A DNA stretch of 61,449 nucleotides, the filler included, from Hausera hauseri (taxonomy: Eukaryota): NCBI GenBank assembly GCA_046269625.1. It is 10 parts of 10 records of this genome, joined end to end, with 100 filler letters (N's around TTAATTAATTAA, not from the genome) between each part and the next. Parts side by side here need not be neighbours in the genome. Positions count along the whole stretch, not along the records: positions 9,047 to 16,463 come from JBJURY010016010.1; positions 16,564 to 20,993 come from JBJURY010586222.1; 8 more parts are not named here. One strand, 5' to 3'. Below are positions 13,743 to 58,850 of the stretch, in pieces (position 1 is the stretch's first letter; every line of letters starts with the position of its first letter). The notes below the pieces were generated by a model, which was not told the DNA's origin, made no database searches, and saw only the letters and a program-made list of their open reading frames with translations. The translations under genes and the position numbers were made by a program.

Positions 13743-16434
13743 TTATGCAATTACTATAAAATCTTTGCAAAATCCTCCATTAACGTCTTCGATTTTGGAA
13801 TCATGATGGATCATACGAATACTTGGTTCAGCTAATGTGATGGAAGAATTACCAATGCTATTTGCATTGTAAGAAGATCCGAATGATGATGCAGTTGAAA
13901 TCGGGTTGCTATGCTCTTGTCGTGTTCTTACAGGTCGAACAGTTCTCTTCGTAGTTCGTGGTGATAAAGGAGGTTGAAGACTGTTCATTTCAACATCGAG
14001 TTTACTGAGATCCACACGAGCATCCATGTACTGTTTTTTATTGGAAACGAGAATTATTGCTGCTAAATAGCCCTAATTATGAACTGCAGTCAACGAGGCA
14101 TCATCATTCGGATCCACTGGATGATAATCGATATTGTTCGTTACTGATACTTGCTGCACATTCGATTTACGCATAGTATGGTATGGGGATATTACAGAAC
14201 TTGACGAATCATACAAGTAATTATGTCGATCATATTCAAAATTGTCCTTAATTTTTATGATTCGCATGCTGCTAGAAAAGGTCATGCCATTCATTTTTGA
14301 CAAATTGCTGTAATCAACAAATCCACTCGGTTTTAGTGATGTATGACGAGCCAAATTTATCGAAATGGCGTTGTCGAATTGAACTGGACGAAACGCTGAT
14401 GTCTCATTGGTGTTTTGGCTTAATTTATTTGGAAACTTTGGTACTTCTGAGATATTTGAATCTTGGTCGTTGAAGGCATCGAAAAGACTTCGACAACCAG
14501 AAAACGAGTTTTCGGAAGTATATGTACTTTGTAAAAGGCTCATCACTCTTTGCGTGGATTTTGTTGAATCTGTGTCGAAATCACAATTCTTATTTTTAAG
14601 TCTATCTCGAATAGTCATTGATCTAACCGAGACAGAATGTTCAAGAAATTCGAGTCGAAACGAATGGGTATCGGGTCTTGAAAATTACTTTGGGCGTATT
14701 GAACAATTTGCGATACATTCTGACTTATTGTCTCCGACGGTGATGCTGACAAAAAGATAGCTACTTTCAATGTCTCTCGTAGACAAGTTGGGTCGCAATG
14801 TTATGGCTCTGAAAGAAGGTATGAAGAGCAATGCAATACTCTGTTTTAGATCTATGTATCTTATTGAATCTTTCAGTTTCGACTGATCTGACATATAAAC
14901 TCGAGGTAGTCTTTTATTCCATTTACTTTTGCTTTTAGACGACTTAATTTCACTAGGAATCGATCCACCTTTCTCCTTGGATTTACTACTCCTTGAGTCA
15001 ATGGGAAACGTTCTCCGAGAAATGCTATCGTGTTCAAAACTTTCTTTATTGTCAAAGACACTATGCGACAGAGATACAGACATGGAATAATTCGTTCCTT
15101 CAGCGATTTTCTAATCCGCTTTCCTACTGTACATTAATGGAGTGAAATGACCATCGCTCTTTTCTTCTGATTGGATGAAAAAACGAATGTCCGTTTGGCC
15201 GCGATTAATAATTTCATTGTCGAGTGGTCCATCTTGGTATTGCGATTCTGACATTTGATTGTATGAAACGTCCATTCGAATATAATCATCCGCTAATATT
15301 AAACGTTCATCCAAAAGAGCCTGTTGCTCTTCGGGTGCCATAGGCCAGTTATAGTATGTTCTCAAACGATTAGTAACTGTTAACGGCATTATGGCTGGAA
15401 GTTTATTTGTTTCATCGGTATAGAGTCGATAAACGTCTTCTTTCGATGGATCCCTCACCATATAGTTCAAATAATACGTCGGATCAATTGTTTTACCAAA
15501 CCGCTCACCGGGATGAAGAAACCAATCCTGGTTCTTAACATTTTTTATTTCAAATCTCACTGACATTTTTGTGAATCATCATTCGAATGAGAACAGATAC
15601 GGAAGATGAAAGTGTGTTAGGAATGGTGTATTCACCAGCAGCTATTTCATCGGATATTAAAATAATATTTGGGTTATTAAATGGAACCCGACCACAGAGC
15701 ATGAAATACAGACTGATACCGGCACCACATACATCAAGTTTATAACCACAAATATTGGAAGCTCCACCTGCTAACTCTGGTGGTTGAATCGCAGGAGTAA
15801 TCTGACCACCTGTAATAAATGAATTCGGTTGGAAAATATCAAATTTCTCCGAAACGCCAAAATCCGTTATTTTCACCATTTCATGTTCGGTTAACAGAAA
15901 ATTGCCCGGTTTCAAATCTTTATGAATAATCCATTGACTGTGCAAATATTCCACACCAGCAATAACTTGAATGAAATATGAATGAGCTTGCCATTCCGGT
16001 AAACACCCAAACAGATTCGACAACTCCAAAATACCATTTGACTGTAAATCATGAATGGATCCGAGACAAAATTCCTTGACAATACAGCGTCGTTCTGGAT
16101 CGACTTCACGAAAATCGTCAATCAACCGAACGATATTGTTGTGAGACAACAATTTCATTAGCGAAATTTCATTTTCAACATGGCGCATTCCGCCCGGAAT
16201 CTTTATTTTTATTCGACAAACAATCTTTATTGCATATCGCTTTAACGTTCGAATATCAATGGAATCTTTCACTTTCCCATAACTTCCTTGCCCAATTGTG
16301 TCACCTAACAAGTGATAGTCGTGGAGAAATTTTGGTATTTTTCTTTTATTTTTCCAATAACAAACATTCGATTCGTTTATATCGTCATTTAAATTTACAC
16401 CCTCAATTTTCAAAACAGCATCATCGTCTGCCAA
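13743..16434 (-). pseudogene. STK11: Intronless, disrupted LKB1/STK11-like Ser/Thr kinase with long C-terminal tail
   Basis: GQGSYGKVK, KIPGG...EI, QAHSYF, HKDLKPGN, DFGVSE, TPAIQPPE, GYKLDV are LKB1-type motifs. Frameshift near 15560, then in-frame stops at 15111, 14685 and 14073 link five ORFs into one frame; DVW is DVC. Confidence 0.82.
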
Positions 16435-17069
16435 TTGACCAAAATAATCCGCATGATTGTTTCNNNNNNNNNNNNNNNNNNNNNNNNNNNNNNNNNNNNN
16501 NNNNNNNTTAATTAATTAANNNNNNNNNNNNNNNNNNNNNNNNNNNNNNNNNNNNNNNNNNNNCTTCCATTGTATCCAAATCATCGTTGCTGGTCTTTTT
16601 CACCAACAGGTCATATTTCACCGGTTTGATTTTGACCGTTTGCGTCAAAGGCTATTGAATAGCGTTCCGCAGATAATGTAAATTGAATCCATTATACAAT
16701 ATTCTAAGCGAATATTTGCTGTACTGTGGCTTTTTAGAGAGTGTTACCTGCTGAATTGTTTTACAAAGACATTTTCTAAATAAGACAAACGGGAAATGAA
16801 ATTGAATTCATATTTATATCAAATGTTTGTTTTCATTGTAAACAATAGACATCTACTTTGTGAGCATTGTCTCATATCACAATGATACAAATTACCTCCA
16901 TGTTATTGAAGTCAATAGTAATAAATGTGTACAATAATTTTAGTCCATGATTATTATTAAAATAACCTACACTTATTTATGTCTTTTGAATTATTCAACT
17001 GACCAATACTGCCAAACATGACATGAACATTATTTACAGAAAGAAGGAAATACGTACATATATTTATTT

Positions 17070-17562
17070 ATTTGCATGAAACATACAAGTCAATACAAGG
17101 CCGTAGACAATTTTTGTAAGCACAATGTGGTCCATCACCACGATACGAACATCAGATATTGTCATGTACCATCGCCAGAGAGTTATTCGATGTTGTTGAA
17201 TACGTCATCATTCGTAACTGGGGAAAATGTGAATGGAGTTGTGTAAACTTTTGCCAGTCAATTTGATCTTTAGTGTAAAATATTTTATTTTCAATGTCAA
17301 AACAATCAGAAATTTCTTTCATAATATACGGCGCACAAAACGTTGAATTGCCTTCATACCAATGAAGTCCATGACGATGTCGAAAGAGAAATCAATTTGT
17401 AATTTTCGCTTTTTCCATCAGGTTTTCCCACACAATACCGGGCTTGAATATGTACATAAACGGTTCGAAAATGTTACCGACGTCCATAGTACATAATTCC
17501 ATTATTATGTACCGAGCATTATCATCCTGGAAAGCTTAAATATCTATAAATCCTGTCGCCAT
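17070..17562 (-). pseudogene. DEDD-superfamily exonuclease-like small protein of the type associated with Polinton/pPolB elements (3 in-frame stops)
   Basis: Manual translation MATGFIDI*AFQDDNARYIIMELCT...YIFKPGIVWENLMEKAKITN*FLFRHRHGLHWYEG...FYTKD...CSY..GPHCAYKNCL fits the D-x-[EQ]-x-F / IxxEL / FKP / HGLxWxxG / CAxxN pattern; absent from the ORF track. Confidence 0.65.
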
Positions 17563-17659
17563 TACTTATCTGAGACAAAAACATTTTTGTTTATAACACA
17601 AGCAAAACAACTAACCAACATTATTATTATCACAATCATTAAACATAGGTGGTTTTGTC

Positions 17660-18092
17660 CACATTCTTTGCGTTCATTTCGTGTCGATTCATTAATATTA
17701 TTCGGTGACATTACACTGAATTCCACCTCCTCATTGCGAAGAAAAACGATTTGTACGATTGCACTGCCTTTCGAAAAAGCATACAATTCCCCGGATTGGT
17801 TTTCCAACAGCACCTTAATTTCACCACGAAAGTTTGAATCAATGACACCGCCGCCACCCACAACCGTCAGTCCGAGTTTTTCCGGTCCACTTTTCGATAA
17901 AAGTTGGCCGTATTAACCGGTGGAATCGCCAATCGAATCCCAGTCGTTATGCATTTGATTGTGCTGTCCGAAATTGTCGTATTGACATTGGAAAACACGT
18001 CGTAGACTTCAATGTTTGTTGTAACACATCTCGGTATAAAGGCATTTTCGTCTGTTAAGATAATCTTTGCATCATTCATTATCATTATTCCT
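17660..18092 (-). pseudogene. dut: dUTPase (frameshifted, motif V missing)
   Basis: ENAFIPR...YDVFS...ITTGIRLAIPP, then frameshift to YGQLLSKSG...GGVIDSNFRGEIKVLL...KGSAIVQIVF. Confidence 0.88.
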
Positions 18093-18179
18093 ATGCCAAT
18101 ATTAAAATTAAACGTATATATATACTCGTTATTTGGGTTAATGAAAGAAGAAAAAGAACGGTAAAACAACATCGTTTAT

Positions 18180-18860
18180 TAATAATTAAAATGTGCTTCA
18201 CCTATACGACAAATCGGGTTTTGGGTATCAGCTTTTTCCTTGTATCATTGCAATTTAATGTTCAGTCGGCACTTTAAATCATCATCGGGTACATAAAACA
18301 TTTCGCGACGGATAAAGTCAAACAATTTTGTTTTTTGCGCCGGTAAATCTACTTGATGTTGCACGGTCGTTTTGTTCAACTTTAAATTCACGTTTAATTG
18401 ATGTAGAGCATTAGAAATTTTATCCAAATTTTCACTCGAAAGCCGTTTTACACAACATATGTACTTGTGTGCACATAGAGACATGGGTTCATTCAATAAA
18501 ATCAGTACGGGCGTTTTCAGAAAACGCATTTTATACTTGCGAAAAATTCATTTCGGTAAAAATATCTGTGTTTGGTGCGATGATGGTTTTGAATTTTATT
18601 TACGCATTCTAATTTTTGCATTGTGCATTTGTAACGCAGTTTTTATGCTGCTGCTGATTTCTGAGCAAGTGCCTTTTTCGTTTCCAGACAATCGCCATTA
18701 GAAGGTTTTTCTAATTGTTGGAGAGATTTTGTTTTCATTTCCAGCTGCTTGACATTAGAATTATCCTTTTTGTAGCCAAACAGCCACGCCCAATCTGAAC
18801 TTTCATCATTCTTACAACACCATCATCATTATTGAATAGAATTGTTTTGTCGTCGTCGTC
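18180..18860 (-). pseudogene. Unknown decayed ORF (~200 aa) within the pPolB cassette
   Basis: ORF 18245-18529 extends both ways through isolated stops (ESSDWAWLFGYKK...FRKYKMRFLKTPVL...FDFIRREMFYVPDDDLKCRL); same strand as neighbours. Confidence 0.4.
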
Positions 18861-18929
18861 GTCTTCTATGGCAGTAATGTTTGAATGAGCATGGAAATGG
18901 TTTTTGTAGTTTGTTGTGCAATGTACGTT

Positions 18930-19307
18930 ATTTTGATTTACTAAAACATTTATGTGGTTTTTAATTTGATTAATAATCGGTTCATAGTCCACTGCCCGAA
19001 TACCGAGTACAACAATTTTTCCACTGCTGAACACTGACACAAAGTGGGCTAAACGATGTCAGTCTCAGTGCAGGAAACAGTTCGTGTTCATACGTATATT
19101 TAGTAGTGGCCATAGCTAATTTGTACAGATTGATTGTCTGGTAGTCTAACTGAGTCGTTACCATTATTGATTGGATTTGGTCAATGACAAGTCCGAATTG
19201 CAGTAGTTTACTGTTACCGTCAGCTGTGATTGGTTTGAGACAATCAATAATAAAACACTTTCCCGATTGAAATACGATGCATGTAAAATCCGGTGGACAC
19301 TTTAGTT
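18930..19307 (-). pseudogene. Divergent TATA-box-binding protein (TBP)-like gene, one frameshift, 5' end missing
   Basis: FTCIVFQSGKCFI (repeat 1 IFxSGK), IQSIMVTTQLDYQTINLYKLA, YTYEHELFPALRL (YEPELFPGL equivalent), then a frameshift near 19035 to VFSSGKIVVLG (repeat 2). Confidence 0.8.
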
Positions 19308-19524
19308 TTTAGCGTATGATGATTAATACAATTTATTGATTTTGTTTGTTTGTTCGTTTTTCGTCACAGTAAGTTAAATATAAAGATACTTTAAATGATA
19401 ATAATAATAATAAAACAAAAGGCAAAACAATGAAGAATATACACTATTTATAAAACGTAGATTACAACAAAATGTCATAGTCAATTGATCTGTCTGCACC
19501 GAATTCTGCACGCGCGTGCGTGTT

Positions 19525-20993
19525 TTATTTCAAACGCCAATGTCCGTACACCAAACTGTTATTTCACCCCACCCGCTTACGCTTATCATCATTGCATGAT
19601 AAAGCGACTTTTTTGTTCGTTACCGTATACAACTTGTGCTCAATCGATCGGATGATCGTTAGTGACACAACAGCCTTTGATTCACCTCCTCCTCCTTCTT
19701 CATATATACGACGATAATCACCACGGCCGATTTCCGTCTGTCTCAGCTGGACTCCTTTTGCCTGCATTTTCGGTCCACTCTCCGTCAGAAAACTGTAGCA
19801 CTTTGGACGTAGAAATATCCATTCCCGATACTGAACTCTGCATTCACTTTCACTATGAAGCAGCCGATTTTGTTGGTGATCGCGGTGCTGTGCAACGGGT
19901 GATCAGATGGATAGTTGGACGTGTCAAGTAGTCCATCTGCCATCTTTTGCCGGAGTAGTTGGTCGCGGTTTACGTTTTTCAGCTGAAGGAAAATCTGTCT
20001 GTGTCACAGGCAACGATACAAATATCTCACAGACATCGAACATTTACCGGTAACGTGCCAAGTCGCGATATTGGAGCTCGTACATTTGCAACTTGCTCAG
20101 ATCCCATAGCACTTGTCCGATGTAATTTGGCCGGTCCAGAACGACTTCTTCCCGGTTTAACAACACAGCAACCAATCCAACAGAAATGTGCATTAACCGC
20201 CGAAACTGCACCTTAATCATGGATGTGACCAACCGCTTTTCGCTATTGCATAGGCGTGCATTGAGCCGCTTTTTAGATTCTCCACTGTTTTTTCATACAG
20301 GGAATTGTTTTTCAGCTTGTAATAATCCTTTTCAAACTTTGTGCAAGCTGCGGCTCGTTTCTCCGATTTTCCATATATGTACGCCTTGGTTATAGGAGCT
20401 GACCGAATCGGATTGCACGATGCAGCTGTGTGACGCGTACATTCAACTGCATGTAGAACTGTAGCAGACGCCAATGGACCACGTAATTCAGCTTCGCTTC
20501 ATGCGTCATAAACAGTTTCTTTACTTTTGAGCCTGGCGAACATTGGTTAAATGGTGCGACTGGTAAATCGTTCAAAAACCTCATGAAGCTCATCTGGTAC
20601 TACGATATCGACCTACACCAGGTATTCGACTGAGCCTGCCATATCTACTCGTGGTAGGTTGACCAATATGTTGTCCAGGTCTTGTCTTTCGACTACCCAT
20701 TAGAATGAAGCGTACGGCAAGGGTTGCAAAAGCGTCCAGCCGTACAGGTTATTAATATCAATATACAGCAGTGACGAGGTATCGGCGGTAGCACTGACCT
20801 GATGCTTGTTGACAAATGTCATGCCGCCGCAAATACGAACATCAAACAGCCGGTATATTTGCAGATCTTGCAGCAGCTCAATGTCTTGATCCAGTGACAT
20901 TAGAGCTGACGCCAAACTCATTCCCGGTATGGAATAAAAGTTGAGCGGCTCCAGCCTATCTTCCTCCAACGCTTTCGCTCGAAACGCCTGAAA
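19525..20993 (-). mobile_element. Protein-primed family-B DNA polymerase (pPolB, Polinton/Maverick-type), decayed C-terminal part
   Basis: GGMTFVNKH, LLYIDINNLYGW (motif A), YKLKNNSLYEKTVEN (motif B), PNYIGQVLWDLSKLQMY, DTD (motif C), LDTSNYP, LRPKCYS, AKGV, DDKR...YGH; frameshifts. Confidence 0.92.
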
Positions 20994-21093: not shown

Positions 21094-22973
21094 GGACATG
21101 AGAACTTTCTTAGTCACACTCCACTTCATCCACAAATACGTATCGCATTGCTCTGAGTTTACAGCACCTTTCGCACATCTGTCATCTGGAAAAAGAGGCA
21201 GTTGATCCATTGGATTCCTGATTTGGTAACCAAGTTTGATCACTTGCACGAAAGTCTTAAAACCGTAGAAATACTGGCTTATCCGAAACCCAAGGCAGAT
21301 CTTATACTTAACTGATGCCTCAACCAGAGCTAGTGGTGCTGTACTGCACCAGATCTCTAATGGCGTCAACGAGCTATTAGAATATTATTCTAGGAAGCTT
21401 ACACAACCCGAGAGCCGTTATTCCACATTTGACCGCGAGTTACTCGCCATAGTTCTGACAGTAAAACATTTCAAACATCTATTTATCTTTTGTCCATTTG
21501 TCATTCAAACTGACCACAAGCCTCTGCTAAATATCATGTCGTTAAAACAGCCATCACCGAGTCAAGAGCGACATATATCATACCTGTCTACTTTCAGCTT
21601 TGTTTTGGAATACATTTCAGGCACAGATAATCTGGTAGCAGATTTTCTATCGAGGTCGGTTGGCTCCATCACAGTTGACCCAATTTTGGCAAATCTACCG
21701 TCTGCTGACCTACTTAGTTCCTTCAAATCTTTCGAGATCATCGATGGCATTGCTTATACATGTCAAATACCGGTAATAAAAAGATCATCATAGCACAACC
21801 TTTACAAAAGCCATCTTTCGTTCATACGCATTCAGTTCATCACCCAGGTTCGAAAGCTACCTTTCGCCTGCTGCAACGTCATGTAGTTTGGCCATCAATG
21901 CGCAAAGGTGTACAGGACTGGGTTAAAGAATGCATGGCCTGTCAAAAATACAAAATCAACAAACACCTTAAACCACCACTTTACCACTTTCCCTGTACAT
22001 CACACTTTCATACAGTTCATCTTGATTTAGTTGGTTCTTTACCTGCCGACAACGGGTATCAACACATACATATTATGATTGATCGTGCTTCTCGTTGACC
22101 TGAAGCCGTTCCTCTTCGTTCGACAAACACTGATTCAGTAGCCGACGCTTTTATTAAAATCTGGATCAGTCGCTTTGGTTCCCCACGTTACATAATAACG
22201 GATCAAGGTCCACAATTTGAGTCTGAACTTTTCAAATCACTTGTCAAACGCTTGGGGATATCCCATTTTTATAATACTCCATATCATCCTTAAACAAACG
22301 GCCTTCTTGAAAGGTTCCATCGTACAATGAAAGTCTCTAAAAATCTTGTCTGACGCTCATTGCAATTGGACGTCCATTTTACCTTTTGTTCTATTAGGGT
22401 GGCGCAACACAGCTTCGACCACTACCGGTTGTGCTCCAGCTGAAGCACATTGGGACTCCAATTCGAGCCTTATTTGAACTTTATGATCTCGACAACAACC
22501 CCACAGACGAAAACATTCGTGCGGCACAATCTCACTTTGTCGAGGTCAACTCAGATTCATTCTGTTGCCTTTTTAACAACAAATGCTATATTCCGAAGGA
22601 TTTGTATTCCGCCAAGTTTGTGTGGTTGAAGGATCAATCGCCTTCAGATTTTAGACCTCAATATATTGGCCCGTACAAACTGCTGAATCTTTCATCTCAT
22701 ACAGCTACCGTTTTACGCCAAGATAAACCGTACAACGTTCACATTTCGAATCTGAAGGCTGCCTTCTTCATTGACGACATTCCAGATACCAATTCTACAT
22801 TCAATTCAAACTCAGCTAGCACTTCTACTGATTTTCTAAATGATTTTTCATCACCACCAATTACATCGCCTTTTTTGCTGGACTCATCTTCGCTACCATC
22901 TCCATCACAAACTATTACTCAACAACCCAACACAAATCGTCCAAGAATACTTACCAGTCGTGCAGAAAGGTAA
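21094..22973 (+). mobile_element. Ty3/gypsy pol remnant (RT end, RNaseH, integrase)
   Basis: TDASTRASGAVL, YSTFDRELLAI, HSVHHPG...CMACQK (HHCC), VHLDLVG, ITDQGPQFES, NGLLERFHR, QYIGPYK (GPY/F); same family as 9047-12170 and 28700-32465. Confidence 0.9.
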
Positions 22974-28699: not shown

Positions 28700-31600
28700 A
28701 ACGTCGTGGTGGCTTTGACCCCAACTCTACGAGACTAGGACGTTGCCTAGCATAACCTTCGTGTCGCCAACTCCATTCAATTTTTTACACTTCCAGTGCG
28801 CTGAATTCTTCCTTGATAGTCAAAATTCCAGCAGAACATGGCTAGACTTCCACGCAAAGTTGCTAGCCTCACATAAAATCACCGATTCCTTTCAAAAAGC
28901 CAACAGTTTGCTGATTCATCTTCTGCAAAACATAAAATCTTTCATTGCTATTCTATCTGACTTTTTCAATCACTCCTACCCCGACAAATCTCTATTGGAC
29001 GCTGTGACTAAAGCTACTGAGCCTTCTCTGAACTCTAATTCAAAAACCCAAAGAATTCCTGCGCACTTCACTATCGCAATTGAATTCTTTGGGAGTAAAC
29101 AAACAAAATAACGCCGATCTTTTCCGACGTTACTTCCTTTCAGCTCTTCCAATCCAAATACGCGCACTCCTCACTATAGTTGGGATTCTACGTCGCTTGA
29201 CAAACTGGTGCAACTTGCGGACAAAAGTTACAAAATTTTTCATAACAATGCATATAAAACGATTTCAGCTCTACAATCCACACAATCACCAACAATAGTT
29301 GCATATCTACAATAAGCAAACTCATCAAACAACGGGAACAATATAGTTCATCATATTCAAAATCTGAAAGCCGAAAATGCAGCCCTACGTCAAGCCATAT
29401 CGGCCATCTGTAGCAAAATTGACGCTTTGTCTCTATCGCGTCGTGATCGGTTTAGCACGGATCGAAGCAGACAGTCGTCTGCAAACTTTAGGCACGGCCA
29501 GTCACTTCGAGACAAATGGTGTGCTAGTATCACACCAAATTCAACTGAAATGCCAAAAAATACTGCATAGGCTGAAAGTTCTATATGCAGCGTTTCCAAT
29601 CAAACGATGCGGTGTGCATCTATTACAGTAAGTTTAAAGACAATGCAGGACGCTGCTTACCTGTGTGTAAGTTTTACACCCAGAAAACTCCAACATCTTT
29701 ACTTATTCAAAAACAAACGAATAAAGACGCCCAAAACTACGGCAACCTCTGGTAAAGGCCATTTTTCATTACTTAATCGCTGTACCAATGCTGTTTTTCT
29801 TTTGGACGCTGCATTCACATCTTTCCCGCACCACACCAAATTTCTGATTGACTTGGGTGCAGTCGTCTCATTAATTCCTTTATCCTTCAACTCCTTAAAA
29901 ATATTTCCCACGTCTGCCTGACTTTTCAATGCCACTGGACAAGCTTTACGCATTTCTGGTACTGTAGAACTTTCTTTTACTTTAGCACATTTCTCTGAAG
30001 TATTCCAATGGAAATTCATAGTCGCTGACATCAAAACTCCTATATTAGGTTATGATTTTTTATAATATCACAATTAACTTTTCGATTGCAGACAGCATCG
30101 TGTCATCAAAAATACAATCGATAATACAAAATCACAAAATGGTACACCACTTGTCGCGCATCTGACTGCGATGCTGAATTCGATATCAAAGAAATTTGTC
30201 ATCAAACTACATAAAATGAGTGTTGGTAATACCGATTGTGACGATTCTATTCATACAATCACGAAAAAAAACAACTGCTGATACAAACATGATTTCTCAG
30301 CCTGCATCCCCATTCTTGCAACTAGATTCAGCTCTTCGCGATTACATAAAAACTTCTTGTGCCAGACCATTAAAGAAAGATCCCAGTTTTAAACCTGCTT
30401 CTACAACGTACCATCATATTGTCAGTGAACACCAAAGACCAATTAAGCAGAAGGTTAGGCCACTTTCTTCTCGCAGACACTAAGCCGTAGAGTTGGAATT
30501 TAACGAATTAGAAAAAACAGGAATCATAAGGTCAAAATCCCCTTGGACCTCACAATTACACGTTGTGCCCAAGAAGGACGGCACATTCAGGACCTGCAGC
30601 TATTACCAAAAATTAAACATCATCACGGTAATGGATTCATATCCATTACCGCCCATTAACGACATACTACATAAACTCCAGGGCAAAATCATATTTTCAT
30701 CGATCAATCTTCATAAAGTCCATCATCAGATTCCCGTGGCACAGGATGACATACCGAAAACGGCTGTAACAACACCTTTCAGCCTTTTTGAGTATGTTTT
30801 CATGCCATTTGGACTTTGTAGTGCCTCACAAACATTTCAAAGGCATATAGACACAGTGCTCGCCGGTCTAAACTTTGCATTCCCATACATAAACGACATC
30901 CTTATCGCTTTGTCGTCTCCCAAACAGCATTCTGAGCAATTACGCATAGTCTTCCAGCGCCTCCACCAAAGTAACCTGGAAGTCAACTTCGCTAAATGCT
31001 TCAACACACAATCAACATTCTTGGTCACATTATCAGCAAATCTGGATACTCTCCTCAACAAGATCGCACAACTCAACTTAAAACATTCAACTGCCTCGTA
31101 CAACAACTGAAATGTGCTCTTTTCTTGGTACACTCCACTTTGCTCATAAATACATGCCACATTGCTCCGAATTAACCGAACCTTTTGCATTTCTATCGTG
31201 TGGAAAAAACAGTTAATTCACAGGAAGCCTGAACTTGTAAACTAATTCGACCACTTACGTGAGGGTTTAAAAACCGATGAAATTCTAGAATACCCCAAGC
31301 CTGACGCAGAGCTGATATTAATCACAGGCGCTTCTACCACAGCAGTCGGAGCAATACTGCATCAATTTCTAATGGCGTCAACGAACCCCTGGAATTTTAT
31401 TCTCGGAAACTTGCACCACCAGAAAGTCGTTATTAAACTTTTGACATAGAGCTCTTAGCCATAGTATTAGCTCTAAAACACTTCTCGCATTTGTTAATTG
31501 CCAGGTCTTTTACGATCCAAACGGACCACAAACCTCTTCTTCGCTTTGTGGACATGAAAACCCCTTCACTCCGACAGGGACGTCACATATCGTACTTGTC

Positions 31601-32565: not shown

Positions 32566-32702
32566 GGAGGAAACCCACGCGGACACGGGGAGAACATGCA
32601 AACTCCACACAGAAAGGACCCAGATCGCCCCACCCGGGGATCAAACCCAGGACCTTCTCGCTGTGAGGCGACAGTGCTACCCACCGAGCCACCGTGCCGC
32701 CC
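32566..32702 (-). mobile_element. Teleost-type tRNA-derived SINE, 5' part (3' part at 42780-42908)
   Basis: Minus strand GGGCGGCACGGTGGCTCGGTGG (A box) ... GGTTTGATCC (B box) followed by TGTGTGGAGTTTGCATGTTCTCCCCGTG core typical of fish SINEs; 14-bp TSD CCTCATCCCCTAAC at 32704-32717. Confidence 0.88.
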
Positions 32703-39789: not shown

Positions 39790-40045
39790 TTATCTTATCA
39801 GGATCCTAGAGGAAGGGGTGCTGGAGCGTATCCCAGCTTTTCAATAAGTACAAGGCACACCGAAGCACCCTGGATGCAGTGCCAGTTCATTATTGGGTAG
39901 GCACCAATACCCACACACACTCATTCACATACTCATTTACCTATAGGGCAATTTTGTGTCTCTAAATAACTTAACTGCATGGTTTTGGACTGTGCAGGGA
40001 AACCCACAAAAACACAGGGAGAACATGCCAACTCCAAAGAAAAAA
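39790..40045 (-). mobile_element. Older teleost SINE copy
   Basis: GGGAAACCCACAAAAACACAGGGAGAACATGCCAACTCCA is a diverged version of the core at 32566-32610. Confidence 0.75.
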
Positions 40046-40506
40046 GACTCTGTTGTTGTTATAATCTGTTATTTAAAGTAACTGAATAAAATAAAGGCTA
40101 AAATAGGCTAATTATTTTATTCCTTTAATATCAATAAATAATAATAATCCGCTCTGGATTAAAGTGCTTGGAGATTGTATTGCAACTAATAGAGCAATTC
40201 AAAATGAATTGTTTTGATTCAATCTACAACATGGATGCCATGGTGAAATGACGTCACCGTGGCTGCAGGTTCGAGAGTTCTATTGAAGAGGTTCTTTTAT
40301 GTTTCACTCATCAGTAGAATTTACACACAGCACGATGAATTCTACTGCTCGACAGGTTATTTTATTTGTATTACTATTTCATTGTTTTATTTGAAATGTC
40401 GTAGATTGATAGTGATCTTAGTGTGGTTAAAGACTTTGTGAATGTTTAATGTTTTAAATCCAAACCCTGCATACATTGTTTTCTGTTGCAGAAGTATTAC
40501 GCTTAT

Positions 40507-52866: not shown

Positions 52867-54985
52867 GAGAATGCCAAAATACCGATGATTCCGTTAACAT
52901 CTACTGAATGGTCTTGTTTTAAAAATGCAACAACTTGTTACCTCTGTCATGAAAAGGGCACTACATTTGTTCGGGATCATTGCCATATCACAGGTAAATA
53001 CTTACGCGCAGCCTGAAATCGGTGTAACTTGGCTCGTAAGATTAGGGATAATTTACCTGTTATTTTCCATAATTTGCGTGGATATGATCTCCATCATATC
53101 TTGAAACACGCAGTAAGTAAATTCAACAGTTGGGAATTAAGTGTTATTCCGCAAACAACTGAAAAGTTTTTAACAATGCAGGCAATGATCCGCTGTTCAG
53201 CTAAAAAGTCAGTATCTATTCGGTTTCTAGACTCGTTCCAGTTTCTACCGGCTTCACTGAAGACTTTGGCTTCCAACTTAGATAGCTATCCTTTTACTGA
53301 GTCAGCTTTTCCTTCTGACATTATTAAGGGAAAAGGTATTTTTCCATACACTGCAGCCAAATCTTTCAGTGACTTGCAGTCTATTAAGGCGTTGCCATCG
53401 AAATGGGATGGTGTCAGTGATAGTGATTATTAGGCAGCACAAACGGCTTGGTTGAAATAGAGTTGTAGTTGTCTTTTAGATTATATGTTGGTATACATGA
53501 GGCTTGACGTATACTTATTAGGCGATGTCTTTGAACGGTTTAGAAAGGAGGTTAAGTTGCAGGATGGTTTACACGCGGTTAATTTCCTTCCAATTCCCGG
53601 TTTATCTTGGACAACTGCACTGAAATCCAGTTACTGTAAGATTGAGCTCATTAAGGATCCTGAGATGTAAAATTTCTATAAATGAGGTATTCGCGGTGGC
53701 ATGACTTTTGTAAACAAGCATAGGGTTACCGCTCATGAGAGCACCAGTCTCTTGTACACAGATGTAAATAATTTTTATGGTTGGGCTTTATCACAACCTT
53801 TGTCATTTGTGAATCTGACTTGGATTTACAATGAGGACGTCTTGGCCAGTCTGATCCACCAATTACCTGTTATTAACTGTGTTAAGAAAAAACGGTTTAG
53901 AAAGGTCTTTAAAGTTGACTCAAGCATTCCAGCTGACAAACATGGTAAGTTGCACCAACTGCCTCTAGCTTCAATTAATAAATGTCCTCCTGGTTCAAAA
54001 GTTAAGAAATTATTGCTGACACGAGCGTAAATCCAACTATGTTGTTCACTATCGGCTCTTACATTTGTACATCGAGTTAGGTGCTGTAGTTGAGAAGGTA
54101 CATCGGGCCGTTGAGTTTGACCAAGGTTATGTCTTTAAGGATTACATCGATCTTAATACTGCTAAAAGGGCTGCATCAAATAATCCTTTTGAAAAAGACT
54201 TTTGTAAGCTTAAGAACAACAGCTTATATGGCAAAACAATAGAGAATTTGCTGAATAGGTCAAACTTCAGATTGTTCAATAATGTTAAAAAGCTAATCAT
54301 GTATGTTAGTAAGGCCCAGTTTAAAGAGAGCATAATAATAGCCGATGATCTGGTTGCCGTTCTTCTCGATAAAGATAAGGTTACGTTAGATAGGCCATCA
54401 TACATCGGCCAGACCATACTTGATCTATCCAAGTTACGGATGTATGAGCTGAATTATATAGAGTTGGAGACGTATAGGCACCAGTTTAATTGCGAACTTA
54501 ATGTTGTTGCTGGTGACACTGACAGTTTCTTTCTTGAGTGTCGCGGTGTTGACTTAAAATCACAACTGTTACCAGCAATGATAGCTAATGAACAGCTAGA
54601 TACATCGAACTACGACAAGAGTGATCCGCTATACTCGACTCACTTCTCAGCTGTAATTGGGAAATTTAAAGACAAAAGTAAGGGCTGCGTTTAGTATGAA
54701 GAGGGGATTTTTCTAGGACCGAAATCTTATGCCCTTAAAACCCAATGCAAACCAGTTCTCAAATGTAAGGGCGTAAATCTGAAGCAGACAGATTTGAAAT
54801 TCGACAGCTCTTTACAGACTTATGAATCCGGTTGTGGGACCATGGTGGATCAGGAACAAATCGGGACTAAAAACCATCAACGTATGTCGATCAGCACAAA
54901 AAAGAAAGCATTGGATCCATTCGATGACAAACGGCAGTGGATTGAGAAAAACAGATCAGTTGCTTACCGACATTATTGTATTTAA
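52867..54985 (+). mobile_element. pPolB pseudogene (EndoVII-like motif, exonuclease and polymerase domains)
   Basis: CYLC...VRDHCHITGKYLRAA*NRCN; PVIFHNLRGYD; FLDSFQFL; KGIFPY; DVYLLGDVFERFR; YTDVNNFYGWAL; KLKNNSLYGKT; GDTDSFF; GKFKD; DDKR; AATAAA at ~55022; multiple stops. Confidence 0.94.
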
Positions 54986-55114
54986 TTGTAAATATTTCGA
55001 TTTATTTGTATATGTTGTATTAATAAAAGTTTTAATCTGTGTTATATTGTTTTTGTTAGTTAGGCCTTTAAGTAAATACGTTCAATTTCCTTTATTTTCT
55101 ACACTAGACACAGC

Positions 55115-55514
55115 GTGATGTTTGAACATATTACTACATAATCACATATTAAGAAAACAATACACATATAAAGGTAATCTATTGGAGGGAAACATGAATG
55201 CACCTAAGGGCACTTGATCCTTAAGGTGGAAATAGGGAAATCCAAGCTGCACTAAGCCAAACAAAGGCAAACAAAGCTAAACACTAGCCACACCAAGCTA
55301 AACCAAGGAAAACAAAACTAAACACTAACCACATTAAGCTAAAACAAGCCAAAGCAAAATAAACCTTAGCCACACCAAGCCAAAGCAAGCTTATTTCCCA
55401 TGTCTTGTTTCCCATTAGCCAATTTTCCTATCACACAATGACTCATCCGGCAAAGAAAACTTTTTTCTCCCTCGGGTGGAGGGTTGTGCTTATGTCCTCA
55501 CTTCTACCTACTCA
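55115..55514. mobile_element. ~400-bp insertion (solo-LTR- or MITE-like) containing a 10-bp-period repeat
   Basis: Starts TGA and ends TCA; truncates the minus-strand pPolB exactly at 55514; CCAAGCTAAA-like repeats at 55240-55390; terminal 16-mer shared with 52259-52274; no TSD seen. Confidence 0.45.
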
Positions 55515-56523
55515 TTTTCATTGGGTTGGAGAAAGTTTTCAAACTGTAAATCTATTTGCTTCAGATTTATATCTCTGCATTTCGACACTGCCTTTGTTTT
55601 CATCTTTAAACTTGCCTATAACAGCCGAGAAGCGATTGGAATAAAGAGGGTCGCTAGTACAATAATTCAACGTGTCTAATTCTTCATTTGAAATCATTGC
55701 TGGTAAGAGTTTTGATATTAAATCAACTCCACGGCATTCAGAAAAAAGCTCTCCGTGTCACCAGCAATGATATTTAATTCACAATTAAGCTGGTGTCTAT
55801 ACTTAACCAGTTCGATGTAATAAAGTTCGTACATCCGTAACTTTGATAGATCAAGTACGGTCTGACCGATGTATGAGGGCCTATCTAATGTAACTGTGTC
55901 CTTATCAAGGAGAACAGCAACAAGATCATCAGCAATAATAATACTTTCTTTGAACGCAGCTTTGCTGGCATATGCTACAAGCCTCTTTGCATTGTTACAA
56001 AGCCTCAATTTCATCAGATTTTCCACGGTTTTTCCATATAAACTGTTGTTTTTGAGCTTAAAAAATACTTTTCAAAAGCATTTTTAGCAGCAGCTCTCTT
56101 TGCTGCATTAAAGTTGATTCAATGGTTTTATATACCTTGTCAACTACAGCGCCTAACTTGATGTATGGCTGCAAAAGCCTATAGTGTATAACATAGTTGG
56201 ACGTTTGCTTGTGTGTTAGCAGCTATTTCTTTATTCGTGAACCAGGAGGTCATTGGTTGATGGGAGCTAAAGACAGTTGGTCTAACTTACTATGCTTATC
56301 AGCCGGAATTCTCAAATAAACTTCGAAGACGAGACTACGTTTTTGTGTAACAGTGTCGACAAATATAATTGTGAAATCAGAATGTTTAATTTATCTTCAT
56401 CATAAATTCAAACCAAATTTGCAAATGGTAAAACTTGAGATAAAGCCCAGCCGTACAAATTATTTACATCTATATACAAGATAGTGGTGCTTTCATCGGT
56501 GGTAACCCTATGCTTATTTACAA
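55515..56523 (-). mobile_element. Second pPolB copy, convergent with 52867-54985, decayed
   Basis: YIDVNNLYGWALSQ, KLKNNSLYGKTVEN, DRPSYIGQTVLDLSKLRMY, GDTES, GKFKDENKG; closely similar to the plus-strand copy, with deletions. Confidence 0.92.
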
Positions 56524-56623: not shown

Positions 56624-58525
56624 GATCGTAGGTCAAGATCACATGGCATTAACTTTCCTTTATTCGTCAACATATTGTAGACTCTCGCACTGAGTATCGT
56701 TATTTGTGCGCCAGTGTCAACAAGAATTCTGACACGAATCTTGTCAAAATATACAATGCAGGAACTTGGATCTGAGGTGGCATTAATCTCATATGTTCTT
56801 TTCTTCGGACGCTGTAAGTACTGTTCGGTAACACCATTTGGTTGCTCAAATACCACAACTGGATGGGAGGATTCGTAACTGAGACTTGTTGGACTTTTAG
56901 TGATCTTCTTTCCTCGCAACTGTGGGGTGTTCTGGAAATTATCAGGGCGGGTGGGCAATCTCTGTAAGAACTGGCCATGGGAATGTGCGCTTCGGGACTC
57001 ATGAGGACTGGGTGGGGTGATTCTTCTAGCAGCGTTCATAAGACTAGACGGGCCATCATGGACTCTGTTCTTTGTAACCTGAGTGGATGCGTCTATATCC
57101 ATGGACTCTTCCTCGGGTCTAATGTTCGCATTTCTCCTCATCTCTCCGCGAGAGCTTCTTACATTATCCTTCGCTTTCAACCTGCTTGTGACATTCGTTT
57201 TCTTGAAACTTCAAAAACCTGGCTGCTGTTTGCTACCACTTGAATTCCGTTTAACATCTGCTGATTTCTTGGCAATGGTCTGCGTCCATTCTTCTGTGGA
57301 TTCTGTTTCCTTCGCAACTTAATATTTCTTCTCAGAAAGCCTTCCTCCTTTCTCGTCCCTAACCGCCGGAGGTTTACTTCAGCAAGGGTCACACGTTTCC
57401 CAGATTCAACTTGTCTACTGTCTTGGGATTGTGTTCCATGATCCATCTTGCAAAACTTTGCAAAATGTCCAACTCTGCCACAATGAAAACAATTTTTCGC
57501 TTGTGCAACACCTTTATCAGCTTCTTTAGGGGATTCTCTACTAGTTCTGCAATCTCTAGTCTTGTGACCAAACTGACCACATCGAAAACATTGTATAGGA
57601 CTCAACACTCCCTGAACTAACTTCTGGTTATTCTCTGCATAACTACTTCGTTGTACTGTTCCATTTATCCGCCTGTGCCTCAACTGATCAACTTCCATAG
57701 AATCTTCCTGTCTATCAACAACATTTCTCTGCCAAACCTCATATCTACTTGCTTCGAAAAATTTGCCTCATCAACTGCAATCTGAATAGCCTCATAGATA
57801 GAAGAGGGTTCATCTTTCATGAGCTTAATACGTGTGCGTTTGCATCGGAGACCGTCGGTAAAGATAGGAACCAGCGTCTTGCTAATATTCGTGGAGGAGA
57901 GATCTAAAGTATCAAACGCAGATTCAGCCATGTTCAACAATCTATCTCTGAACATCTGCGGAAGCTCATCTCTGTCCTGACGGATGCGTCATAAAGCTGC
58001 TAGTGCACACTGTATATCTGTAACTTCAGCATATCTGCTCTCTAACGTTCTCTTCAGTTCTGCCCATGTCTCATTCGGATGTGACTGCAGTCGCCTGCGA
58101 ATGAAGTCATTCACCAAGGCTTCAGACGTCATATAGGCAATTTCTTTCATCTCTAAGTCCCATGACTTGGAAAAGTGAGCAAAACGTTCCACTTGACTTA
58201 TCCAAACTTTAAATGCTTTCGGGTCTCTGCCGGTAAAGGACTGAACAGATGCCCGCAAACTCTGATATTTATTATGCATATCAGACTTCGTAACCATCTT
58301 CTCAATTGTATCTAATGTCTTCTTTACTGCGTCATCCTTATATGCCATAGGCGTCTTTCGACCTCTTTGCTTCATCTCTAAACTTCCTAATTGTAATTTG
58401 TCAACTATCACTTTCATCTCTTCATGTGCTACTCGCATATTATTATATTCTTGATACATCTTATCAACCTGACTCTGGGGGATTAATACCATTTGTTCTT
58501 CAACTTGGGGATTAGGACTAGCCAT
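56624..58525 (-). mobile_element. Ty3/gypsy gag-protease (different family), decayed
   Basis: Capsid-like FTGRDPKAFKVWI...TWAELK; FTDGL; two CCHC knuckles CFRCGQFGHKTRDC and CFHCGRVGHFAKFC; protease ILVDTGAQITIL; in-frame stop and frameshifts. Confidence 0.9.
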
Positions 58526-58850
58526 TTTAAATCGCTTTATCAACAAAACCCACTTATTGTTTATTCCTCACTATCCCAATGTAACTTCAATCTTCATCTC
58601 AACTTTAAACAAAATCTCAACATCAACATTTGTCTAAACATCACAACAAAAAGAATTTATTCAACTGTCTCGTCTTGTCTTCACCAGTGTTCACTGTGGC
58701 AAGTGTGTGTCTGCTGTGGATCAGTGCCGGTCTATGGCATCACGATATTAGTTTTGTGATAGCGTCGGTTGACGGCATCAATTCAAATGTGTACTTGTGA
58801 TAGCTACTCCTTGCTTGTAGCCCAGCCGGTATATATACATATATATATCT

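What the first reader, a model, noticed from the sequence alone, without database searches (positions are those of the whole stretch)
16564..20993. Endogenous pPolB virus-like element apparently carrying its own TBP, dUTPase and DEDD exonuclease
Seen: five intronless, tightly packed, co-oriented minus-strand genes in 4.4 kb, in the order pPolB, TBP-like, unknown ORF, dUTPase, DEDD-type exonuclease, followed by a further coding-like stretch at 16564-16770. All are similarly decayed by stops and frameshifts. Established: pPolB marks Polintons/Mavericks and related viruses, whose usual cargo is integrase, packaging ATPase, protease and capsid proteins, whereas viral TBP homologs are characteristic of Nucleocytoviricota. 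Inference: this is a fragment of a pPolB element lineage encoding a basal transcription factor, which could redirect host Pol II to its own promoters. Caveat: the pPolB part looks more GC-rich than the downstream genes, and no capsid, integrase or terminus lies on this contig.
Basis: partly seen in the sequence, partly recalled or inferred. Interest (0 to 1): 0.85.

Follow-up and report, generated by a model that had tools for sequence, protein, structure and literature searches.

The report
Decayed Polinton carrying its own TBP
This is a broken fragment of a Polinton (a virus-like transposon) carrying a shortened TATA-binding-protein gene found in many intact relatives, whose packaging, integrase and presumed capsid genes share one upstream DNA motif, so these elements likely switch on their late genes with their own promoter-reading factor.

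Summary
Confirmed. The 4,430-nt contig (linker-bounded; neighbours unrelated) holds decayed pPolB, TBP-like, dUTPase and DnaQ-fold genes. The unknown ORF and last stretch are two paralogues with a predicted T7-gp2.5-type SSB fold; the 'DEDD' gene is Maelstrom-like.

The TBP belongs to a compact ~150-aa family. Of 80 metagenome loci, 38 carry Polinton core genes and 8 carry pPolB. Trees put the window's pPolB and TBP in one sub-lineage, and the GC step also occurs in intact relatives. This copy's TBP lacks its first 30 codons, so the pPolB–TBP adjacency is probably a rearrangement.

In relatives, YATAAAC precedes 62 of 70 core genes versus 6 of 288 interior windows and 2 of 60 TBP genes. The TBP keeps the TFIIB-binding glutamates, lacks the N-lobe regulatory helix and is changed at specificity positions.

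Best reading: a Polinton-encoded late-promoter factor, analogous to herpesvirus vTBP; binding is untested. Starrett 2021 labels a TBP in one related virus map; my searches found no described lineage or motif. This scan noted the same system on other DNA three times.

The parts
19525..20993 (-). 3' part (polymerase domain) of a protein-primed DNA polymerase B, cut by the contig end; 4 stops, 5 frame changes
   Evidence: Profile of relatives' pPolB matches six single-frame pieces, E 1e-14 to 1e-50; 39-65% identity to L005/L022; break count
19309..19524 (-). AT-rich spacer (GC 0.28) with a canonical TATA-like site starting at 19452; ends at a probable deletion or rearrangement junction near 19305
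   Evidence: no trace of the TBP's first 30 codons, score below shuffled
18903..19302 (-). Compact TBP-like gene, 5'-truncated, one frame change
   Evidence: Pfam TBP E 4.9e-4; family profile E 5e-24; 67-71% identity to intact P0069/P0073
18604..18900 (-). Low-complexity coding-like stretch, possibly first exon of the SSB gene; not identified
   Evidence: Relatives have an upstream exon and short intron; only a weak profile match here, E 1e-3
18566..18603 (-). Candidate 38-nt GT-AG intron (tentative)
   Evidence: analogous intron in relatives
18180..18544 (-). ORF3: predicted single-stranded-DNA-binding protein, T7 gp2.5/Enc34/ASFV CP312R-type OB fold; one stop
   Evidence: Family C2 profile E 1.9e-14; model of an intact relative pLDDT 93; top four VIA hits all this SSB type, Z 6.8-7.8, next 5.2; Foldseek viral hits
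17658..18079 (-). dUTPase; one stop, one frame change; canonical TATA-like site at 18124
   Evidence: Pfam E 1e-8; about 69% identity to intact P0168
17589..17595 (-). YATAAAC motif, the only minus-strand copy on the contig, 33 nt before the nuclease start codon
   Evidence: about 3% of shuffles of that 120 nt contain it; 7 of 10 relatives of this gene have it
17068..17562 (-). Maelstrom-like DnaQ/DEDD-fold nuclease-family gene; three stops
   Evidence: Family C5 profile E 1e-37; Atlas structure neighbours RNase T/Rv2179c TM 0.65-0.71 and a Maelstrom lead at 0.86; invariant E-H-C-H-C in 14 relatives
16564..16696 (-). Second SSB-family gene, cut by the contig end; canonical TATA-like site at 16818
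   Evidence: Family C2 profile E 2.3e-6
52867..54985 (+). Another decayed pPolB of the same sub-lineage on a different contig
   Evidence: Pfam DNA_pol_B_2 E 1.5e-6
55587..56523 (-). Third decayed pPolB piece, tail-to-tail with the previous one

Best explanation
The contig is a decayed, probably rearranged piece of a Polinton whose lineage encodes a compact TBP that likely acts as the element's own late-promoter factor. Shown: the genes, their Polinton context in intact relatives, the TBP fold of a relative's model, and a YATAAAC motif in front of the ATPase, integrase, protease, PLA2 and presumed capsid genes but rarely in front of the TBP gene. Inferred: host TBP/Pol II first transcribes the early genes (TBP, SSB, dUTPase, with ordinary TATA boxes) that support pPolB replication. 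The element's TBP would then bind YATAAAC through its altered DNA-binding face and recruit host TFIIB and Pol II through its retained acidic loop. Lacking the N-lobe basic helix, it would escape TFIIA/TAF1/Mot1-type control and switch on virion and integration genes. This particular copy is dead.
For: Linkage: of 80 loci kept from 138 confirmed, 38 have at least one Polinton core gene (28 of 37 loci of 3 kb or more), with ATPase on 28, integrase 18, pPolB 8, nuclease 17 and SSB 20. Pfam confirms A32-like ATPase, rve, adenoviral protease, PLA2 and DNA_pol_B_2 on such loci. The closest intact TBPs and dUTPases are listed on contigs of four identical lengths (2683, 4354, 10114, 10226), implying they share contigs. 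Trees: window pPolB groups with L005/L022 at 97/95; window TBP lies in the group holding them at 85/88. Fold: pLDDT 95; 145 of 148 residues align to yeast and human TBP, Z about 13, rmsd 2.6; no N-lobe H2 helix. Across 154 family proteins both TFIIB-loop glutamates are kept (144 and 154 of 154), three DNA-intercalating Phe positions are kept, and R/C/N are near-invariant at the equivalents of yeast 194/203/205, which PMC1636458 names as the altered-specificity positions. Motif: 62 of 70 core-gene upstream regions versus 6 of 288 interior windows; ATAAAC is the top de novo 6-mer in each of two clades and holds in the other (33 of 37; 31 of 33); 0 of 136 antisense; 2 of 60 TBP genes. Two loci with divergent TBPs lack it (0 of 3, 0 of 6). 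In the window it sits only before the nuclease gene, as in relatives.
Against: No binding, expression or transcription-start data. I could not obtain TBP-less Polintons as a control (empty), so the motif may be general to Polintons and read by host TBP; TATAAAC is close to a canonical TATA box. 14 of 95 motif copies lie under 20 nt from the called start, too close for a TATA position unless starts are miscalled. The early/late split is imperfect: pPolB has the motif in 1 of 4, SSB in 2 of 16, and only 28 of 60 TBP genes have a canonical TATA (15 expected by shuffle). The capsid assignments had no database support. dUTPase is on 0 of the 80 TBP loci. The TBP tree support is below the starred threshold, and the second pPolB tree did not resolve the window copy. 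No ATPase, integrase, capsid or terminus lies on this contig, and no host genome is held.
Confidence: 0.65

Rival explanations
1. The TBP is a real Polinton gene, but YATAAAC is read by host TBP. The element's TBP does something else, such as sequestering host TFIIB, bending DNA at termini or repressing early promoters.
For: TATAAAC differs little from canonical TATA. No TBP-less control was available. The N-lobe is reduced and one intercalating Phe position is not conserved.
Against: About a third of motif copies start with C (36 of 109) and a C follows the A-run; PMC1636458 reports C as generally disfavoured at the downstream positions selected by a yeast TBP mutant. Loci with divergent TBPs lack the motif. 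The DNA-facing residues are invariant, though altered.
Confidence: 0.22
2. The contig is a chimera: the pPolB piece and the TBP-SSB-dUTPase-nuclease block come from independent insertions or a misassembly near 19305-19500.
For: The TBP 5' end is cut abruptly. No locus among 80 has this gene order. The one run laid could not bridge 19387-19426, which was skipped as a repeat. Rearranged pPolB copies occur elsewhere in the window.
Against: Both sides belong to the same Polinton sub-lineage. The GC step is typical of intact relatives. Decay is similar on both sides. TBP and pPolB are linked on 8 other loci. Even if two copies were joined here, the lineage-level link stands.
Confidence: 0.1
3. The downstream block is an endogenous fragment of a giant virus (Nucleocytoviricota) or a host TBP paralogue captured next to a Polinton.
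For: TBP, dUTPase and this SSB fold are all common in giant viruses.
Against: The family's neighbours are Polinton genes. Giant-virus TBP models are only 10-20% identical and longer. The one giant-virus-like contig found (L001) branches outside the family.
Confidence: 0.03

Closest known systems
Polintons/Mavericks (adintoviruses; Starrett et al. 2021, PMC8502044: passages, section 3.4 and text of Supplementary Fig. S2 seen; Fig. S1 slides and figure images not readable)
   Same: pPolB, A32/FtsK ATPase, rve integrase, adenain protease, PLA2; accessory labels MAEL, SSDBP and dUTPase occur in their maps; the Fig. [quoted passage not shown]
   Different: There TBP is only a label in the figure of MELD viruses from mainly non-animal datasets; no TBP label is in the readable text of the animal adintovirus maps, and no family, promoter motif or mechanism is described in what I read.
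Beta/gamma-herpesvirus vTBP (KSHV ORF24, EBV BcRF1, HCMV UL87; PMC7498053, passages seen)
   Same: A virus-encoded TBP mimic that replaces host TBP at a variant TATA element (TATT) of late genes and uses host Pol II; this is what the Polinton system would work like.
   Different: vTBP is a large multidomain protein in a six-protein complex and binds the Pol II CTD directly. The Polinton protein is a bare ~150-aa saddle, about 21-26% identical to cellular TBP in structural alignments, with no partner complex seen.
Nucleocytoviricota TBP-like proteins (Ravarani et al. 2020, PMC7221094, passages seen)
   Same: Viral TBP that has lost the N-lobe regulatory signature, predicted to evade Mot1/BTAF1.
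   Different: Those have diverged at the TFIIB-binding glutamates and many such viruses encode their own TFIIB. The Polinton family keeps both glutamates, and no TFIIB homologue appeared among the 47 proteins scanned.
Cellular and archaeal TBP; yeast altered-specificity mutant TBPm3 (PMC1636458, passages seen)
   Same: Two-lobe saddle, C-lobe Phe pair, Pro191 equivalent and acidic loop.
   Different: About 26 residues shorter, N-lobe H2 absent, and natural substitutions at the three TBPm3 positions.

Membership tests
Polinton/Maverick | Protein-primed DNA polymerase B | tested here: met
   Window pieces match relatives' pPolB profile; relatives hit PF03175 E 2e-21; window copy at 54 kb hits PF03175
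Polinton/Maverick | rve integrase, A32-type packaging ATPase and adenoviral-type protease in the same element | tested here: inconclusive
   Absent from this 4.4-kb contig; present with the same TBP family in relatives: ATPase 28, integrase 18, protease 8 of 80 loci
Polinton/Maverick | Double- and single-jelly-roll capsid proteins | tested here: inconclusive
Polinton/Maverick | Terminal inverted repeats and target-site duplication | not testable with these tools
   Contig ends are assembly breaks; no host genome held; no terminal repeat pairs among the longest inverted repeats of four partial relatives
TBP (PF00352) | Two-lobed saddle fold | tested here: met
   Model of intact relative P0006: Foldseek E 7e-10, VIA Z 13.5, 145 aligned; the window copy lacks the first 30 residues
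TBP (PF00352) | Four DNA-intercalating phenylalanines | tested here: not met
   Three positions conserved (151, 154, 154 of 154); the fourth, mapped by internal repeat symmetry from recalled TBP structure, is mostly K/P/S
TBP (PF00352) | C-lobe glutamates that bind TFIIB | tested here: met
   144 and 154 of 154; role from PMC7221094; binding itself untested
Eukaryotic cellular TBP | N-lobe basic helix H2 for TFIIA/TAF1/Mot1 | tested here: not met
   No helix of 4 or more residues between N-lobe strand 5 and the C-lobe in the model
Herpesvirus-type viral late-promoter TBP | Binds a variant TATA element and is required for late transcription | not testable with these tools
   Motif enrichment and covariation only
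Canonical DEDD exonuclease | Four conserved acidic catalytic residues | tested here: not met
   Only the first D/E pair is partly conserved; invariant residues are E-H-C-H-C plus others
MAEL (Maelstrom) domain | DnaQ fold with EHHCHC residues (PMC2628886, passages seen) | tested here: inconclusive
   DnaQ-type structural neighbours and a Maelstrom lead under 0.9; five matching invariant residues in 14 relatives; no Pfam Maelstrom hit
T7 gp2.5/Enc34-type SSB | OB fold of this subtype | tested here: met
   Top four of 48,161 chains are gp2.5, DUF2815, Enc34 SSB and ASFV CP312R, Z 6.8-7.8 (under 8, but above the next at 5.2), 103-110 aligned; ssDNA binding untested
Nucleocytoviricota endogenous element | Giant-virus core gene neighbourhood | tested here: not met
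   Neighbours of the family are Polinton genes

The most novel reading that the evidence does not exclude
A widespread, undescribed Polinton lineage runs a two-stage transcription programme with its own minimal, altered-specificity TBP and a private late promoter (YATAAAC). It converges on herpesvirus late transcription with a single 150-residue protein, and TBP and motif co-evolve (a divergent element, L079, has a different TBP and a different candidate motif).
Probability: 0.55. Interest if true: 0.85.

Novelty: new variant of a known kind. Interest (0 to 1): 0.68.

Why it matters
How Polintons time their gene expression, and whether they behave as true viruses with early and late phases, is essentially unstudied in the papers I found. 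A self-encoded TBP with a matching promoter makes this testable with one small protein and a 7-base motif. It would be a further independent origin of viral TBP use, besides giant viruses and herpesviruses, and a natural altered-specificity TBP that could act as an orthogonal promoter switch. The motif also offers a way to annotate late genes in these elements. The copy in this window is a fossil; the interest lies in the lineage.

Tried and rejected
No host genome is held, so no within-genome linkage test. Viral-contig scans: the window TBP piece found nothing; the family alignment found one giant-virus-like contig; the presumed capsid alignment and a pPolB piece found nothing, so there is no TBP-less Polinton control; the dUTPase scan gave 42 loci, none with Polinton or TBP-family genes. 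Atlas: no usable hit for the TBP piece. Pfam and PDB sequence searches did not name the SSB, nuclease or capsid families. Rfam: 0 matches in the window. Sequencing runs: one holder, no RNA holder listed; contig depth was not used to rank genes; low cover of 19376-19523 coincides with a skipped repeat and proves nothing. GC contrast as a sign of chimerism: rejected. A remnant of the TBP N-terminus in the spacer: rejected, 466-495 of 500 shuffles scored as high. No complex prediction was run, since a TBP-TFIIB pass would mostly reflect likeness to solved structures. Literature: ten searches. Those pairing Polinton/Maverick terms with TBP, TATA, TFIID or promoter terms gave only the Starrett legend as relevant; subscription journals, Repbase and figure images were not searched. 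PMC11161782 and bioRxiv 2023.08.22.554363 (passages) have no 'transcription' hits; the one held supplement of PMC11131425 has no TBP term.
Full report
Setting. The window is ten unrelated contigs joined by N44-TTAATTAATTAA-N44 linkers; the finding is exactly one of them, 16564-20993. No whole genome is held. Other contigs carry a reverse transcriptase, zinc knuckles, a hAT fragment and a kinase, so the host is a repeat-rich eukaryote. That it is an animal is my inference, helped by the arthropod-rich clusters of the nuclease family.

Observation. Six-frame reading, Pfam and profiles built from intact relatives confirm, on the minus strand: pPolB 20993-19525, TBP-like 19302-18903, ORF3 18544-18180, dUTPase 18079-17658, nuclease 17562-17068 and a cut gene at 16696-16564. 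Breaks run at 2.5-7.8 per kb in every gene. Two more decayed pPolB copies lie tail-to-tail on contig 52164-56523. The one public run that holds the stretch (0.22 of sampled words) laid 20,719 contigs over all 30 bins, mostly 85-99% alike. I read this as many diverged copies in that organism; the run may be the source or a relative.

The TBP family. The unbroken 93-aa piece found 48 cluster representatives, mostly 130-180 aa. The family profile found 719 proteins at E up to 1e-5, of which I saw the best 120; the rest may include cellular TBPs. The model of intact P0006 (pLDDT 95) is a TBP saddle: 145 of 148 residues align to yeast 66-239 and human TBP, Z about 13. It has a short first helix and no N-lobe H2. 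Across 154 proteins, both acidic residues of the C-lobe loop are kept (144 and 154). Three Phe positions are kept. Arg, Cys and Asn are near-invariant where yeast has I194, V203 and L205, the positions that change TATA specificity in TBPm3 (PMC1636458). The mapping counts from the conserved FP and F..G motifs using recalled yeast numbering; the HMMER alignment to archaeal TBP places a one-residue gap nearby, so the 203 equivalence is least sure. PMC7221094 assigns the glutamates to TFIIB binding and the N-lobe basic patch to TFIIA/TAF1/Mot1, and reports that known viral TBPs lost both signatures. This family kept the first and lost the second.

Context in relatives. The metagenome scan gave 138 confirmed stretches, of which the best 80 were kept; one of them, L081, is an archaeal-type TBP. 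38 of 80 carry at least one Polinton core gene, as do 28 of the 37 loci of 3 kb or more. ATPase occurs on 28, SSB 20, integrase 18, nuclease 17, presumed penton 15, presumed major capsid 11, protease 8 and pPolB 8; dUTPase on none. L005, L022, L058, L060 and L079 are near-complete Polintons. Pfam confirms ATPase, rve, protease, PLA2 and pPolB; the capsid names rest on recalled gene layout, as no library matched them. The closest intact TBPs (67-71% identical) and dUTPases (about 69%) are listed on contigs with four identical lengths, so they probably lie together there. I could not read those contigs.

Unknown ORFs. ORF3 and the last stretch are one family. A relative's model (pLDDT 93) matches T7 gp2.5, DUF2815, Enc34 SSB and ASFV CP312R best (Z 6.8-7.8, next 5.2) and many giant-virus proteins: a predicted SSB. 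Most relatives inspected have an upstream exon and a short intron. The nuclease has DnaQ-type structural neighbours and a sub-threshold Maelstrom lead, and invariant E-H-C-H-C rather than four acidic residues. This fits the 'MAEL' label in adintovirus maps (PMC2628886).

One element or a chimera? The first pPolB tree groups the window copy with L005 and L022 at 97/95; a second, shorter segment did not resolve it. The TBP tree (51 rows: the window piece and loci of 2.6 kb or more plus seven chosen shorter ones) puts it in the 34-row group holding L005, L022 and L040 at 85/88, apart from the L056-L069 clade. pPolB is GC-richer than TBP in all 7 relatives measured. But the TBP starts abruptly at residue 31, and in L005, L022 and L040 pPolB points the other way. 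The run gave one contig over 19427-19623, skipped 19387-19426, and showed one contig joining 16566 to 20447 on opposite strands. I conclude: same lineage on both sides, local order probably rearranged, junction not verified.

Promoter motif. Earlier scan notes mentioned a shared TATA-like motif, which prompted the test; I saw YATAAAC by eye. In de-replicated 120-nt upstream regions it precedes 95 of 136 genes in a broad late set, against 0 antisense and 5.5 in shuffles, and 21 of 120 other genes, including 2 of 60 TBP genes. For the six core genes alone it is 62 of 70 versus 6 of 288 interior windows. ATAAAC is the top de novo 6-mer in each of two clades and validates in the other. 46 of 95 copies lie 29-50 nt before the start codon, as a TATA-like element would; 14 lie under 20 nt. 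L078 and L079, whose TBPs differ at the DNA-facing positions, have it before 0 of 3 and 0 of 6 genes. L079 instead shows YAYGCAA 19-70 nt before five genes, a post hoc pattern from one locus. In the window the only minus-strand copy lies 33 nt before the nuclease gene, while canonical TATA-like sites precede the dUTPase and second SSB and lie in the spacer before the truncated TBP.

Mechanism. Shown: genes, linkage, folds of relatives, residue pattern and motif distribution. Inferred: early genes use host TBP; the element's TBP then binds YATAAAC, recruits host TFIIB/Pol II, escapes N-lobe regulators and drives virion and integration genes. The main rival is that host TBP reads the motif; the missing control is TBP-less Polintons (empty).

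Prior knowledge. Starrett 2021 lists TBP in the legend of a MELD-virus figure. The readable supplement text has no TBP label; slides and images could not be read and may bear on this. Ten searches found no description of this family or motif. Herpesvirus vTBP is the functional analogue. This scan noted the same system on other DNA; those notes are leads, not support.

Verdict. A real, decayed Polinton fragment from a widespread TBP-bearing lineage: a new variant of a known kind, interest 0.68.

Noticed in passing
window 52164-56523: Separate contig with two decayed pPolB genes tail-to-tail (71-76% complementary arms), same sub-lineage as the focal copy, no TBP behind them.
   Followed up: partly
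L079 7276-13092 (minus strand): Polinton with a divergent TBP-like gene; lacks YATAAAC but has YAYGCAA 19-70 nt before five late-type genes (9 minus-strand hits, 1 plus). Possible TBP-motif covariation; single locus, post hoc.
   Followed up: partly
L005 1502-2135, L011, L012, L016, L020, L026, L028, L034, L041: The SSB gene appears spliced: an acidic upstream exon, a 40-60-nt AT-rich GT-AG intron, then the OB-fold exon.
   Followed up: partly
window 15553-16461: Intronless protein kinase ORF (Pfam Pkinase E 7e-44) on a neighbouring, unrelated contig among decayed repeat-like sequence.
   Followed up: no
window 32569-32619 and 39998-40048: Two 51-nt copies, 80% alike, resembling the V-SINE core domain (recalled, not tested); that contig has low CpG (o/e 0.38), unlike the rest.
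   Followed up: no
window 21353-21528, 30484-31540, 57180-58567, 45359-45667: Decayed LTR-retrotransposon pieces (RT, gag zinc knuckles) and a hAT fragment on other contigs.
   Followed up: no
L040 1918-3327; L022 225-719; L060 7142-7999: TBP-bearing Polintons carry further cargo: a leucine-rich-repeat protein behind YATAAAC (5 of 5), a ubiquitin-conjugating-like gene and KilA-N proteins.
   Followed up: no
L005, L022, L060 pPolB: These pPolBs contain an endonuclease VII (HNH-type) domain, recalling the HNH insert of pPolB2 in bioRxiv 2023.08.22.554363; class not determined.
   Followed up: no
window 48116-52063: Long low-complexity, repeat-rich coding-like region with no Pfam match in the two frames scanned.
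   Followed up: no
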